From Syntrophales bacterium (lineage in GTDB: Bacteria > Desulfobacterota > Syntrophia > Syntrophales > PHBD01), in the NCBI GenBank assembly GCA_963668175.1, contig OY764159.1, positions 4,480,001-4,544,000 of the forward strand: DNA of 64,000 bases. The letters run 5' to 3'. This document shows, piece after piece, positions 39,001-42,000 of this stretch (position 1 is the stretch's first letter; every line of letters begins with the position of its first letter). The position numbers are program-made.

Positions 39001-42000
39001 AAATTTGTTTCTAAATGTCCATTCTTTTTTTATACGGGCGGGCAAGATTTTAGCCGACCGGCCGGCCCCGACAACAGGCGGCATGAACCGTCCGCGGTTT
39101 ATTGCTTCCATTTGCGGGGAAGATATGATAGCAGGCAACGCAAACGGGCAACATATTCGATATATGGAGCGGAAAAGTGATTATTTACGAATTGCGCTGC
39201 AAAAACAAGCATCAGTTTGAGGGCTGGTTTCAAGACCGGAACGCCTTTGAGGAACAAAAATCGAAAAATCTCATCCTTTGCCCGGTGTGCGGTGATGCCG
39301 GAGTGGAGATTGTTCTGTCGTCGCTGACCGTCATGGGTAAGGATACACCCTCCTATGAGAAGTCCCCCAAAGGGATGTCGCCTGTCCAAACCTTGAATGC
39401 GCTGCATGACTTCATCAACAGGAATTTTGAGGATGTCGGTGACAAATTTGCCGATGTTGCCCTGAAAATACATCGCGGTGAGGAAGAACAGCGGAATATT
39501 AAAGGCACAACGACAAGGAACGAAGAAGAAGCGCTCGTTGAAGAGGGCATTCACTTCATTAAAATTCCCATCACCAAATTTAACAGCTGAAACCACTCTC
39601 ACCATGCAAGATTTCTTTACGGACATCACCAAAACCATTGGGAACTCGCCTCTTGTCGAAATCAAACGCCTAAATCAGAATAATAATGTAAAAATATTCG
39701 CGAAATTGGAGAGTTTCAACCCGGGAGGATCGATTAAAGACCGTGTTGCTTTCGCCATGATTGAAGGTGCGGAACGTCGCGGCGAACTGACCCGGGACAA
39801 AATCATCCTCGAAGCGACCAGCGGCAATACGGGGATCGGTTTGGCCTTTATCGCGGCAGCGAAGGGTTACAGGTTATGCCTGGCCATGTCGGAGGCTGCA
39901 AGCGAAGAGAGAAAGAAAATCCTGAAAGCCATGGGAGCGGAACTGCTTTTCACGCCGGCGAATCTCGGCACCGACGGCGCCATCGAGACGGTCTACAAAA
40001 TGCTCCGGGAACATCCGGATAAATATTACGGCACGGACCAGTTCAATAACGAAGACAACGTCCTGGCGCATTATCACGGTACGGGCGAGGAAATCTGGCG
40101 ACAGACGGGCGGCGCCGTGACGATGGTCGTCGCCACCCTTGGAACGACAGGAACGGCAATGGGCGTCTCAATGCGCCTCAAGGAGTACAATCCGGCCATT
40201 CGCATTATCGGCGTCGAGCCGTACCTGCAGCACAAGATCCAGGGGCTCAAGAACATGAAGGAATCTTACCGGCCGGGAATCTTCGACAAGAGCCGCCTCG
40301 ATGAAAAGATCAACATCCTCGATGAAGACGCCTTCGAGATGGCCAGGCGCCTGGCCCGGGAAGAGGGACTCCTGGTGGGGATGAGTTCAGGCGCAGCCAT
40401 GCACGTCGCGATTGAGAAGGCCAAAACCATGAGCGAAGGATTGGTGGTCGTCATCCTCCCGGACAGCGGCGAAAGATATCTAAGCACGGAGCTCTTCACG
40501 GATAAACAGGAAACGACGCTCCGGGTCTTCAATACGCTGACGAAAGAAAAAATGTTTTTCAAACCGATCAGCCCTGAGACCGTATTGATGCATTCGTGCG
40601 GACCCACCGTTCATGAGGTTCCGCATATCGGAAGTTACCGCCGTTTTGTCGTGTCCGATATGATCCAGCGGTATCTTGAATACAAGGGATACCAAGTGAA
40701 GCATGTCATGAATATCATCGATCTCGCCGACCGCGCCATCCGCGGCGCGGAGCGAGCCAACATGGAGATGGCGGCCTATTCGGAAAAATGCACTGCATCC
40801 TTCATGAACGGCATCGATAAACTGAACATCAAGCACGAAGAACCTTATCCCAAGGCGAGCGAGAATGTCGACGCCATGGTCCGTCTCACGGAGCGGCTGA
40901 TCGACAAAGGCTATGCCTATGAAAAACTGAGGTCCGTTTATTTCGATATCTCCAAACTAGATGATTACGGCGTATTGTCGAACATCGACCTCAAGAAAGT
41001 TAAACCGGGCAAGACCATCGACCAGGACGATTATGCCAAGGACAGTCCCGTCGATTTCACCCTCCTTAAAAGATCCACCCTGCAGGAACTGAAGAAGGGT
41101 GTTTATTTCACGACCCCGTGGGGGAGCGTCCGGCCCAGCTGGCATCTGGAATGTGCGGCTATCTCACTGAAATACCTCAATGAATCGTTCGACATTCATG
41201 CCAGCGGTTCCGACATCATTTTCCCCCATTGTGAAAATGTCATGGCAATCGGAAAAGCTGCGACAGGGAAGCAGATGGCCAATTACTGGCTCAACACGGA
41301 GCTCCTGATGATCGAGGGGAAGAAGATGTCGCGATCCCTGAACAACACCCTGACGATCGAGGAACTGGAAGCAAAGGGATACGCCGGCCGGGAGATCAGA
41401 TTTTTTCTTCTCAGCGCCCATTACCGAAAACCGCTGAATTTTTCCTTCGGAGCCCTGGCCTCGGCCAAGAACACCGTGACGAGACTCGATCGGTTCATCC
41501 AAAGGCTGATGTATTTCACCCCCGGCAGCGGTCATCCCGATACGGAACAGCTCATTTATGACCTCAAGCAGGGTTTTGCCCAGGCCATGGATGACGATTT
41601 CAACATGTCGGGGGCCTTGGCGTCGATTTTCGAATTCGTCAAGAAGGTGAATCTTCCGCTCTCCCAAGGCCAATTGACGGAAAAAGAGAGGGACCGCATC
41701 CTGGAGACGATGACCTCGATCGATAAGGTCCTTGGTGTTATGAACTTTGAAAAACAGATCATCGACAGCGCGACGCTGAAGCTCATCGAAGAGCGGGAAG
41801 CCTTGAGAAAGGACGGCCGCTGGGATGAGTCGGACGCCATCAGGAGAAAACTGGCAGAGATGGGGGTGGAGATTTCCGATACCCCGGAGGGCATGTTCTG
41901 GAGGTTGAAATCATGAATGGCGAGACAAGAAGATCGATCATTGCAGGTTCATGGTACCCCGGCAATCCCGATGTCTTGCGCGAAGACATTGAAGAGTATT

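What a model noticed while it worked through the whole genome (the two positions that open the first line are those of the whole stretch)
39604..41916. Order-wide fusion of cysteine synthase to a second, archaeal-type cysteinyl-tRNA synthetase
g04075 (770 aa) is a single open frame that joins a complete PLP-dependent cysteine synthase (aa 8-287) to a complete class-I CysRS with its anticodon-binding domains (aa 319-767). A separate canonical bacterial CysRS (g01133) also exists. Boldest reading: the fusion channels newly made cysteine (or a persulfide or other thiol product of the PLP domain) straight onto tRNA-Cys, a one-polypeptide 'make-and-charge' route that keeps free cysteine low in these strict anaerobes. 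New: databases call it plain cysteine--tRNA ligase, and no paper found describes a cysteine synthase-aaRS fusion.
Evidence so far: Domains: PALP 7e-70 (full model), tRNA-synt_1e 3e-88, DALR_2 and CysS_C; NCBIfam TIGR01136 cysteine synthase 9e-110 and TIGR00435 CysRS 5e-120, both full-model. The PLP lysine motif (SIKDR), the TSGNTG loop, the HIGS and KMSRS motifs and the Zn-ligand positions are all present. Affinities: the CysRS half is 42% identical to Methanosarcina CysRS, whereas g01133 is 55% identical to Geobacter CysRS. Distribution: full-length uninterrupted homologs (61-78% identity) occur in 37 of 50 other Syntrophales genomes at least 95% complete, and 3 more are cut by contig ends. 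All 120 listed database clusters of about 769 aa carry both Pfam domains, including Syntrophus aciditrophicus and S. gentianae, an [...]
(Added by a program. Inside this text positions count along the whole contig: contig position 4,480,001 is position 1 of the stretch shown here. "Call 12" and the like, gene names such as g00115 and contig names such as C1 are that model's own, and its searches are not shown. The text may have been shortened before it was handed on; [...] marks where a part breaks off. The agent that wrote the report below was given it as the finding of a first reader that could run no searches.)

Follow-up and report, generated by a model that had tools for sequence, protein, structure and literature searches.

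The report
Cysteine synthase fused to remodelled CysRS
One gene joins a cysteine-making enzyme to a rebuilt second copy of the enzyme that loads cysteine onto its tRNA; the pair is old, widespread and apparently unstudied, and the tRNA-enzyme half probably ties cysteine synthesis to tRNA-Cys instead of doing routine charging.

Summary
The 770-aa open frame at 39604..41916 (+) is real. It joins a CysM-type PLP cysteine synthase to a full-length CysRS paralogue.

- Only 3 of the 4 zinc ligands are kept. E. coli E238 is Val here and H235 is Cys. Further residues that are invariant in ordinary CysRS are also swapped: T68 to I/V, Q241 to I, K269 to R.
- The fusion is phylum-wide, not only order-wide (158 of 401 sampled genomes). 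It also occurs as two adjacent genes.
- "Archaeal-type" is not shown. The CysRS half sits in a fusion-specific clade.

New evidence:
- In 76 of 158 carriers the fusion is the only cysteine-synthase homologue and no CysE is found. CysE tracks the separate CysK instead. So the PLP half works without CysE.
- Outside this order the KMSKS loop is lost in 26 of 36 sequences, yet the anticodon-reading residues persist in 33 of 36.
- An ordinary CysRS is kept in nearly all carriers.
- Within this order the CysRS catalytic domain is under strong purifying selection (dN/dS 0.05-0.13).

Best reading: a CysE-independent cysteine synthase coupled to tRNA-Cys through an aaRS-derived module, in the manner of HisZ or GCN2. 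Charging is possible here but unproven.

This scan found the same family on other genomes several times before. I found no paper on it.

The parts
39604..41916 (+). Fusion gene, 770 codons plus TGA stop. The stop overlaps the ATG of the next gene (ATGA).
39625..40497 (+). CysM-type PLP beta-replacement (cysteine synthase) module, aa 8-298
   Evidence: Pfam PALP 3.3e-69 and TIGR01136 364.5 bits. Aligns end to end with E. coli CysM 2bhs. Foldseek TMt 0.96.
39736..39738 (+). PLP lysine K45, in the motif SIKDR
   Evidence: Invariant in 109 of 109 family members and in 69 of 69 unique fused sequences of the phylum set, order and other lineages together.
39817..39834 (+). TSGNTG substrate-carboxylate loop (aa 72-77)
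   Evidence: Invariant in 109 of 109.
40231..40269 (+). Family-specific basic loop HKIQGLKNMKESY (aa 210-222). K216 and N217 stand where E. coli CysM has R210 and R211.
   Evidence: G214, L215, K216 and N217 are invariant in 69 of 69 unique fused sequences. Alignment to 2bhs.
40498..40518 (+). Short linker, aa 299-305
   Evidence: pLDDT below 50 at residues 293-295 and 300-302 in the AF2 model.
40519..41469 (+). CysRS-like Rossmann-fold catalytic domain with CP insertion, aa 306-622
   Evidence: tRNA-synt_1e 1.3e-87. 8qhp 6.2e-97 and 1li5 2e-82. dN/dS 0.05-0.13 in close pairs.
40624..40635 (+). HIGS (HIGH motif variant), aa 341-344
   Evidence: H and G are invariant. The 4th position is S in 68 and N in 41 of 109. 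N is also common in ordinary CysRS (46 of 75).
41224..41241 (+). PHCENV in place of canonical PHHENE. Zn ligand H542 is kept, H235 becomes C543, and Zn ligand E238 becomes V546.
   Evidence: C in 109 of 109 and V/I in 109 of 109 family members. H and E in 75 of 75 canonical representatives.
41323..41337 (+). KMSRS in place of KMSKS, aa 574-578
   Evidence: 109 of 109 in the family, against KMSKS in the 75 of 75 canonical representatives, which were chosen by that motif.
41521..41904 (+). Helical bundle (DALR_2) and C-terminal anticodon-binding domain (CysS_C), aa 640-767. R735, W740, D744 and R747 correspond to E. coli R427, W432, D436 and R439.
   Evidence: Pfam. Residue mapping. R, D, R kept in 33 of 33 order sequences and 33 of 36 others. 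Role of the E. coli residues from passages of PMC13449415.

Best explanation
The gene encodes a two-module protein from an old, vertically inherited family. The family is fused in this phylum and exists as two adjacent genes in some relatives.

Module 1 is a CysM-type PLP enzyme, and it is the conserved catalytic core. It makes cysteine from sulfide and a serine derivative that does not come from a CysE serine acetyltransferase. O-phosphoserine is the most likely donor; serine itself is possible.

Module 2 is a CysRS paralogue. Its family-wide conserved property is binding tRNA-Cys, through the anticodon-reading residues and the CP domain, not aminoacylation. It therefore most likely couples the synthase to tRNA-Cys or cysteine status. 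The logic would resemble HisZ on HisG, or the HisRS-like domain of GCN2. Housekeeping charging is done by the separate canonical CysRS.

In this order module 2 still has its ATP motifs and three Zn ligands, but a rebuilt and more hydrophobic amino-acid pocket. All of this is under strong purifying selection. It probably still binds ATP and a thiol ligand, and it may still adenylate or charge.

Shown: the domain content, the motif states, the distribution, independence from CysE, retention of the canonical CysRS, and the selection.
Inferred: the phosphoserine donor, tRNA binding, and the regulatory coupling.
For: PLP half:
- All catalytic motifs are invariant.
- It is 55-82% identical across the phylum, against 35-75% for the CysRS half.
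- Among 158 carriers, 76 have the fusion as the only TIGR01136 hit and no CysE. 74 have an extra CysK and a CysE. Only 8 are discordant.
- Three closed genomes (100% complete) have the fusion alone and no CysE.

CysRS half:
- Outside the order, KMS[KR]S is kept in 10 of 36 sequences and HxG in 26 of 36. The anticodon triad R/D/R is kept in 33 of 36.
- The CP-domain block 438-513 is the best-conserved stretch, including in motif-less forms.
- A canonical CysRS ortholog is present in 95 of 97 carriers of the order. The two exceptions are 87% and 75% complete.
- In the phylum, 147 of 158 carriers have a CysRS hit at E<=1e-130. Of 5 of the remaining 11 that I checked, 4 have a separate CysRS and 1 (95% complete) does not.
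- Pocket residues invariant in 75 of 75 canonical representatives are replaced by other near-invariant residues here.
- dN/dS of the catalytic domain is 0.05-0.13, like the PLP half at 0.06-0.10.

Pairing:
- The two halves give congruent trees.
- Natural split forms keep the two genes 14-21 nt apart in 9 loci.
- There is one tRNA-Cys (GCA, U73) in the genome.
- No SepRS or SepCysS is found.
Against: - There are no biochemical data.
- In this order the ATP motifs and three Zn ligands are intact and strongly constrained.
- Use of phosphoserine rests only on the absence of CysE. The PLP half is closer to OAS-using E. coli CysM and M. tuberculosis CysK1 than to any solved phosphoserine enzyme in the listing. 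A non-CysE acyltransferase could also supply the substrate.
- This genome itself has CysE and CysK, so here the fusion is not the only route to cysteine.
- tRNA binding is inferred from conserved residues only.
- Related genomes are not independent, so the co-occurrence counts overstate the support.
- The AF2 model gives a low-confidence linker and pTM 0.73, so no fixed arrangement of the two domains is shown.
Confidence: 0.5

Rival explanations
1. Make-and-charge. In this order the protein is a true bifunctional enzyme. The PLP half makes cysteine, and the CysRS half activates it and loads it on tRNA-Cys, possibly with local hand-over that keeps free cysteine low.
For: - The CysRS HMM score is above the curated cut-off (399.5 against 340).
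- In the order, HxG is kept in 33 of 33, KMS[KR]S in 31 of 33, and Zn ligands C, C, H in 33 of 33.
- dN/dS of the catalytic domain is 0.05-0.13.
- The anticodon residues are kept.
- An independent fusion with fully canonical motifs exists in a MAG that its source labels Nanoarchaeota.
Against: - The Zn ligand E238 and the invariant T68, H235, Q241 and K269 are all replaced.
- Sister lineages lost the catalytic motifs but kept the fusion.
- The canonical CysRS is never dispensed with in the complete genomes examined.
- There is only one tRNA-Cys, so a second charging enzyme has no separate client.
- The linker is flexible in the model, and no channel is shown.
Confidence: 0.2
2. Changed-substrate synthetase. 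The rebuilt Zn pocket activates a thiol product of the PLP half other than cysteine, such as cysteine persulfide or S-sulfocysteine. It then loads this on tRNA-Cys or on another acceptor.
For: - Coordinated, clade-invariant pocket changes (T68 to I/V, H235 to C, E238 to V/I, Q241 to I, S210 to A) sit alongside retained ATP motifs.
- CysM-type enzymes accept larger anionic sulfur nucleophiles (recalled, not checked here).
- E. coli CysRS is reported to make cysteine persulfide with PLP bound at K73/K76 and K266/K269 (passages of PMC5660078). Here K73 and K269 are Arg, and a genuine PLP domain is attached.
Against: - This is pure inference from substitutions.
- Sister lineages with dead catalytic motifs cannot work this way.
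- No coordinates were available to model the pocket.
- The anticodon domain argues for tRNA-Cys and not for a small-molecule acceptor.
Confidence: 0.12
3. Neutral or merely convenient fusion. Two enzymes of consecutive steps were joined, and the CysRS copy is redundant and slowly decaying. There is no functional coupling.
For: - The canonical CysRS, and in this genome CysK and CysE, are present separately.
- 23 of 120 genomes of the order lack the fusion, with clean absence between DUF1178 and Memo in 2 of the 4 fusion-less loci checked; the other 2 loci showed no Memo hit and do not settle it.
- The catalytic motifs decay in many lineages.
Against: - The full-length CysRS half is kept for the whole depth of the phylum, even after the catalytic motifs are lost. 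The anticodon residues are kept in 33 of 36.
- Selection on it in this order is strong.
- Split forms stay adjacent.
- A decaying redundant domain would be truncated or lost, not conserved at 465 aa.
Confidence: 0.08
4. tRNA-dependent chemistry. The CysRS-like half presents tRNA-Cys, or Cys-tRNA-Cys made by the canonical enzyme, to the PLP half. The PLP half then acts on the tRNA-bound amino acid or on a tRNA base.
For: - The family-wide conserved features of the CysRS half are the elements that touch tRNA, not the catalytic ones.
- tRNA-dependent cysteine synthesis is a known principle in the SepRS/SepCysS system (passages of PMC5424206).
Against: - The carboxylate-binding TSGNTG loop is invariant, which points to a free amino-acid substrate.
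- Known PLP enzymes that act on aminoacyl-tRNA belong to another fold type (recalled).
- No SepRS is found.
- No structural evidence shows that the two active sites face each other.
Confidence: 0.05

Closest known systems
Canonical bacterial CysRS (E. coli CysS; PDB 1LI5, 1LI7, 1U0B; NCBIfam TIGR00435). Best solved match is 8QHP.
   Same: Same fold and domain order: Rossmann fold, CP insertion, helical bundle, C-terminal anticodon domain. HMM score above cut-off. Zn ligands C28, C209 and H234, W205 and the anticodon residues R427, D436 and R439 are conserved.
   Different: Fused to a PLP enzyme. E238 to V, H235 to C, T68 to I/V, Q241 to I, K269 to R and K73 to R are all fixed in the clade. It forms a separate clade from canonical CysRS. 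It coexists with a canonical CysRS.
CysM / O-acetylserine sulfhydrylase B (E. coli 2BHS, Salmonella 2JC3; TIGR01136/TIGR01138)
   Same: End-to-end alignment at 1.3e-75. The PLP Lys, the Asn loop and the short CysM-type loop are present. TMt 0.96.
   Different: Scores below the CysM equivalog cut-off (363.5 against 394.2). Has its own invariant basic loop HKIQGLKNMKESY. Occurs without CysE in 76 of 158 carriers. Carries a 465-aa C-terminal CysRS module.
HisZ with HisG (HisRS paralogue as regulatory subunit of the first enzyme of histidine synthesis), and the HisRS-like domain of GCN2
   Same: An aaRS paralogue is attached to an enzyme of the cognate amino acid's own pathway. Catalytic motifs are dispensable in much of the family, while ligand- or tRNA-binding parts persist. 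HisZ is described in passages of PMC9437257. GCN2 is recalled.
   Different: Class I instead of class II. Fused, or adjacent, instead of a separate subunit. In this order the catalytic motifs are retained. Regulation is not shown.
Known CysRS paralogues: MshC, and CysRS* of some Desulfobacterales
   Same: Diverged CysRS catalytic domains used outside routine charging (passages of PMC9437257).
   Different: CysRS* is described there as lacking the anticodon-binding domain; that MshC also lacks it is recalled, not taken from a call. The fusion keeps the domain. The MshC model scores 183 bits against a cut-off of 485. There is no SelC*/SelB* context.
SepRS/SepCysS tRNA-dependent cysteine synthesis
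   Same: Couples cysteine synthesis to tRNA-Cys.
   Different: Unrelated folds. Neither gene is found in this genome: the best hits are 22.8 and 29.6 bits, against cut-offs of 380 and 365.

Membership tests
CysRS (cysteine--tRNA ligase, TIGR00435) | Profile score above the curated cut-off over the full model | tested here: met
   399.5 bits against 340, model positions 1-464 of 466.
CysRS (cysteine--tRNA ligase, TIGR00435) | Four zinc ligands C28, C209, H234 and E238 (E. coli numbering) | tested here: not met
   C332, C517 and H542 are present. E238 is V546 (V/I in 109 of 109). E is present in 75 of 75 canonical representatives.
CysRS (cysteine--tRNA ligase, TIGR00435) | HIGH and KMSKS signature motifs | tested here: inconclusive
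   HIGS: the 4th position also varies (N) in ordinary CysRS. KMSRS: K269 to R in 109 of 109. Arg may or may not substitute for Lys.
CysRS (cysteine--tRNA ligase, TIGR00435) | Invariant amino-acid pocket residues (T68, H235, Q241, S210, G204) | tested here: not met
   All are replaced by other near-invariant residues. The role of T68 in binding the substrate amine is recalled, not checked.
CysRS (cysteine--tRNA ligase, TIGR00435) | Anticodon-binding domain with GCA-reading residues | tested here: met
   DALR_2 and CysS_C are found. R735, D744 and R747 are kept in 33 of 33 order sequences. E. coli roles from passages of PMC13449415.
CysRS (cysteine--tRNA ligase, TIGR00435) | Forms Cys-tRNA-Cys | not testable with these tools
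   Needs an aminoacylation assay.
Cysteine synthase CysK/CysM (TIGR01136) | Profile score above the cut-off, PLP lysine, Asn loop, glycine-rich phosphate loop | tested here: met
   364.5 bits against 344.15. SIKDR, TSGNTG and GTTGT are invariant or nearly so.
Cysteine synthase CysK/CysM (TIGR01136) | Works on O-acetylserine supplied by CysE | tested here: inconclusive
   CysE is not found (E<=1e-35) in 82 of 158 carriers, and in 76 of these the fusion is the only cysKM hit. This shows that CysE is not required in those genomes. It does not identify the substrate.
HisZ-like regulatory aaRS paralogue (works-like comparison) | Loss of aminoacylation motifs while a binding function is retained | tested here: inconclusive
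   Met in other lineages: all three catalytic features are kept in only 10 of 36. Not met in this order: 31 of 33 keep them.
HisZ-like regulatory aaRS paralogue (works-like comparison) | Allosteric control of the attached biosynthetic enzyme | not testable with these tools
   Needs enzyme kinetics with and without tRNA-Cys, Cys and ATP.
MshC / CysRS* type CysRS paralogues | No anticodon-binding domain. MshC profile above cut-off. | tested here: not met
   The anticodon domain is present. TIGR03447 scores 183 bits against 485.1.

The most novel reading that the evidence does not exclude
The pair is a tRNA-Cys-linked sulfur-chemistry device, not a cysteine synthase plus sensor. In one version, the PLP half makes cysteine persulfide or another thiol amino acid, and the rebuilt three-ligand zinc pocket activates it and places it on tRNA-Cys. 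In another version, the PLP half acts directly on tRNA-Cys-bound cysteine. Either way the result would be a second, chemically distinct aminoacyl-tRNA-Cys pool in these anaerobes.
Probability: 0.1. Interest if true: 0.9.

Novelty: new variant of a known kind. Interest (0 to 1): 0.62.

Why it matters
If the reading holds, a large group of anaerobes makes cysteine by a CysE-independent synthase. That synthase is physically tied to a tRNA-Cys-binding synthetase paralogue. The group includes sulfate reducers and syntrophs, about four in ten sampled genomes of the phylum.

This would be a class I counterpart of HisZ/HisG or GCN2. It would also be a new way to match the supply of a toxic, oxygen-sensitive amino acid to translational demand.

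There are practical consequences too. Databases annotate these genes as plain cysteine--tRNA ligase. In about half of the carriers this hides the only cysteine synthase, and it inflates the count of CysRS genes. The idea is directly testable with one recombinant protein.

Tried and rejected
- Complex prediction (PLP half against CysRS half, alignment A1) was never accepted because the queue was full. No docking result exists.
- Expression: no RNA holder was listed for the stretch.
- Neighbours as partners, rejected. DUF1178 lies directly upstream in 20 of 20 order loci, but in 0 of 39 loci outside the order (19 of those had only 1.5-kb flanks). 4 of 5 fusion-less genomes of the order keep DUF1178. 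Two of these show PilC-DUF1178-Memo with the fusion simply absent. Outside the order the neighbours are unrelated housekeeping genes. The adjacency is therefore synteny.
- SepRS/SepCysS route, rejected.
- MshC-type ligase, rejected.
- 'Standalone' closest relative P0125 turned out to share its cluster with a 782-aa fused protein, so it is probably a fragment.
- Evidence for phosphoserine from homology: the solved M. tuberculosis CysM did not appear among the best 60 PDB matches. A paper search for its Arg220 found nothing. That link is only recalled.
- The AF2 model gives no coordinates, so I could not test whether C543 reaches the zinc.
- Paper searches that found no description of the fusion. 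One further search failed on syntax. bioRxiv supplements and non-open papers were not searchable.
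Full report
**Observation**

Window 39604..41916 (+) is one uninterrupted frame of 770 codons. The longest frame starts at a GTG at 39478, and the reverse strand is full of stops.
- Pfam finds a full-model PALP domain (aa 8-287, 3.3e-69), the class I CysRS catalytic domain (319-622, 1.3e-87), DALR_2 (658-713) and the CysRS anticodon-binding domain (726-767).
- NCBIfam scores it above the curated cut-offs of both cysS (399.5 against 340 bits) and cysKM (364.5 against 344.15). It scores below the CysM equivalog cut-off (363.5 against 394.2) and far below MshC (183 against 485).
- The best solved relatives are CysRS 8qhp (6.2e-97) and E. coli CysRS 1li5 (2e-82) for the C-terminal half, and E. 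coli CysM 2bhs for the N-terminal half.
- An AF2 model built with a 64-sequence family alignment has mean pLDDT 89.2 and pTM 0.73, with a low-confidence linker at 293-302.
- Foldseek matches each half separately (TMt 0.83-0.96). No solved chain spans both (TMq at most 0.51).

In the residue-by-residue alignment to E. coli CysRS, C28, C209 and H234 are kept. The fourth zinc ligand E238 is V546, and H235 is C543.

I examined 109 full-length family members (65-98% identical in the CysRS half). Their signature is invariant: HxG[S/N], PHCEN[V/I] and KMSRS.

I compared these with 75 CysRS representatives that carry PHHENE and KMSKS. The following positions are invariant or nearly so in those representatives, and are replaced here by other fixed residues:

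| E. coli position | Canonical residue (count of 75) | Fusion family |
|---|---|---|
| T68 | T (75) | I/V |
| G204 | G | S |
| S210 | S | A |
| H235 | H | C |
| E238 | E | V/I |
| Q241 | Q | I |
| K269 | K | R |
| K73 | K | R |
| Y26, Y33 | Y | H |

HIGN-type motifs are common among ordinary CysRS (46 of 75). The HIGS motif is therefore not unusual in itself.

**The genome's own cysteine genes**

The single-contig genome (4.57 Mb) also has the following:
- a canonical CysRS (HVGH, PHHENE, KMSKS);
- a third CysRS-like gene of about 405 aa with no anticodon domain and no C209 equivalent;
- a CysK with a CysE-like gene 4 kb away;
- one tRNA-Cys (GCA, U73).

It has no SepRS or SepCysS.

**Distribution**

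In the window's order:
- 87 of 120 other sampled genomes hold a full-length uninterrupted copy.
- 10 hold copies that are cut by contig ends, split or interrupted.
- 23 hold none, mainly in three families.

A search with the window's own CysRS finds the ortholog in 95 of the 97 carriers. The two exceptions are 87% and 75% complete.

The fusion is not limited to the order. In a sample of 401 genomes of the phylum, 158 hold a two-half match (E<=1e-170) at 45-73% identity, and 18 more are ambiguous.

In a scan of one genome per species, 67 of the best 80 loci are fused. 9 loci (MAGs that their records label delta proteobacterium, Myxococcales, Binatia and Spirochaetales) have a cysM-like gene ending 14-21 nt before a separate CysRS-like gene in another frame.

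A 768-aa fusion with canonical KMSKS comes from a MAG that its source labels Nanoarchaeota. It nests among ordinary CysRS in the tree, so it is an independent fusion.

**Evolution**

The CysRS halves of the phylum's fusions form one clade, apart from 43 ordinary CysRS (SH-aLRT 96). That clade also holds 7 rows of single-gene length, at least some of which are fragments or split forms.

The order's PHCENV forms are a clade with support 100, nested among lineages with PHHENE or PHNENE. KMSRS looks ancestral for the fused clade.

The PLP halves give the same major groupings, on branches about three times shorter (median end branch 0.13 against 0.46). This fits one old fusion followed by vertical descent. 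'Archaeal-type' is not shown by any of this.

**What the PLP half does**

All PLP motifs are invariant across 69 unique fused sequences. A basic loop HKIQGLKNMKESY, standing where E. coli CysM has R210 and R211, is family-specific and invariant.

I cross-tabulated three phylum-wide scans: the fusion, CysE at E<=1e-35 and cysKM at E<=1e-70. The result for the 158 carriers is as follows:

| Carriers | Other CysK | CysE | Count |
|---|---|---|---|
| Fusion is the only cysteine-synthase homologue | no | no | 76 |
| Extra CysK present | yes | yes | 74 |
| Discordant | yes | no | 6 |
| Discordant | no | yes | 2 |

- Among 225 non-carriers, 180 have CysE.
- Three closed, 100%-complete genomes have the fusion alone.
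- So CysE goes with CysK, and the fusion works without it.
- The substrate (O-phosphoserine, serine, or an ester made by another acyltransferase) is inferred, not shown.
- Related genomes are not independent, so these counts overstate the support.

**What the CysRS half does**

Motif retention in the 69 unique fused sequences:

| Feature | Other lineages (n=36) | This order (n=33) |
|---|---|---|
| KMS[KR]S | 10 | 31 |
| HxG | 26 | 33 |
| Zn ligands C, C, H | 31 | 33 |
| All three together | 10 | 31 |
| E238 | 26 | 0 |
| Anticodon triad R/D/R | 33 | 33 |

- The anticodon triad corresponds to E. coli R427, D436 and R439. Passages of PMC13449415 describe these as anticodon contacts.
- The best-conserved stretch of the half, also in motif-less forms, is the CP-domain block 438-513.
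- For three close pairs in this order (dS 0.2-0.5), dN/dS is 0.05-0.13 for the catalytic domain, 0.06-0.10 for the PLP half and 0.20-0.26 for the anticodon region.
- In the phylum, 147 of 158 carriers have a CysRS hit at E<=1e-130. Of the other 11 I checked 5. Two have a separate 469-aa CysRS just under the threshold, one has a frameshifted copy, one has a partial copy, and one (95% complete) shows only the fusion.

**Neighbourhood**

The stop overlaps the start of a Memo-like gene (ATGA, with GGAGG 8 nt upstream). A DUF1178 gene ends 13 nt before the start.

DUF1178 is upstream in 20 of 20 order loci but in 0 of 39 elsewhere. Fusion-less genomes of the order keep PilC-DUF1178-Memo-AMMECR1 with the fusion simply missing. 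The neighbours are therefore synteny, not partners.

**Reading**

The conserved catalytic engine is the PLP enzyme. The feature of the CysRS half that is conserved across the whole family is tRNA-Cys recognition. Routine charging is covered by another gene.

The most economical model is a CysE-independent cysteine synthase whose activity is tied to tRNA-Cys or cysteine status by an aaRS-derived module. In a route without CysE, the sulfhydrylase is the first committed step, so it is the natural place for control. HisZ/HisG is the precedent (passages of PMC9437257). GCN2 is recalled.

In this order the module keeps a constrained but rebuilt active site. Adenylation or charging, possibly of a changed substrate, remains open.

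E. coli CysRS is reported to use PLP bound at K73/K76 and K266/K269 for persulfide synthesis (passages of PMC5660078). Here K73 and K269 are Arg. This is a lead for the persulfide variant and nothing more.

**Literature and earlier notes**

- Five full-text searches found no description of this fusion.
- A 2022 review lists only CysRS* and MshC as CysRS paralogues (passages).
- The paper on RNA-dependent cysteine synthesis does not mention the fusion in the passages returned by a term search.
- Subscription papers and preprint supplements were not searchable.
- The scan's own notes show that the same family was reported on other genomes at least 14 times, with similar conclusions: a remodelled pocket, dead halves elsewhere, adjacent forms, the sole synthase in about half of the carriers, and the HisZ analogy.

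**Not done**

The domain-docking job was never accepted. No RNA runs were listed.

Noticed in passing
G000:C1:3596727-3598004 (outside the window; locus L003 1459-2673): A third CysRS-like gene of about 405 aa. It has HIGN and KMSKS but no anticodon-binding domain and no equivalent of the Zn ligand C209 (WNIQDPS). It is flanked by a MatE transporter gene and an MlaA lipoprotein gene. It is not obviously the SelC*-linked CysRS* described for some Desulfobacterales.
   Followed up: partly
window 39177..39590 (+), 41913..42740 (+), 42771..43322 (+): DUF1178 zinc-ribbon gene, Memo-like gene and AMMECR1 gene. In fusion-less relatives these three are contiguous, so the fusion gene sits inside an otherwise conserved DUF1178-Memo-AMMECR1 string. 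The function of that string is unknown.
   Followed up: partly
P0128 (768 aa; its source labels it a Nanoarchaeota MAG): An independent PALP-CysRS fusion with canonical HIGN, PHHQNE and KMSKS motifs. It nests among ordinary CysRS. It may be a true bifunctional enzyme in a reduced archaeal genome.
   Followed up: partly
G065:C251:2301-4539 (order genome): The two halves lie in adjacent overlapping frames on one contig (residues 1-274 and 292-769). This is either a frameshift error or a recent split.
   Followed up: no
L121 and L153 (records titled 'archaeon' and 'Methanococcoides sp.' MAGs): Fused copies of the bacterial type, 44-48% identical to the split-form query, sit on short contigs of archaeal bins. 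This could be binning contamination or gene transfer.
   Followed up: no
G000:C1:887917-893376: CysK, a cysteine-desulfurase-like gene (weak SepCysS-model hit at 890877) and a CysE-like gene lie within 6 kb. This looks like the genome's separate OAS-route cluster.
   Followed up: no
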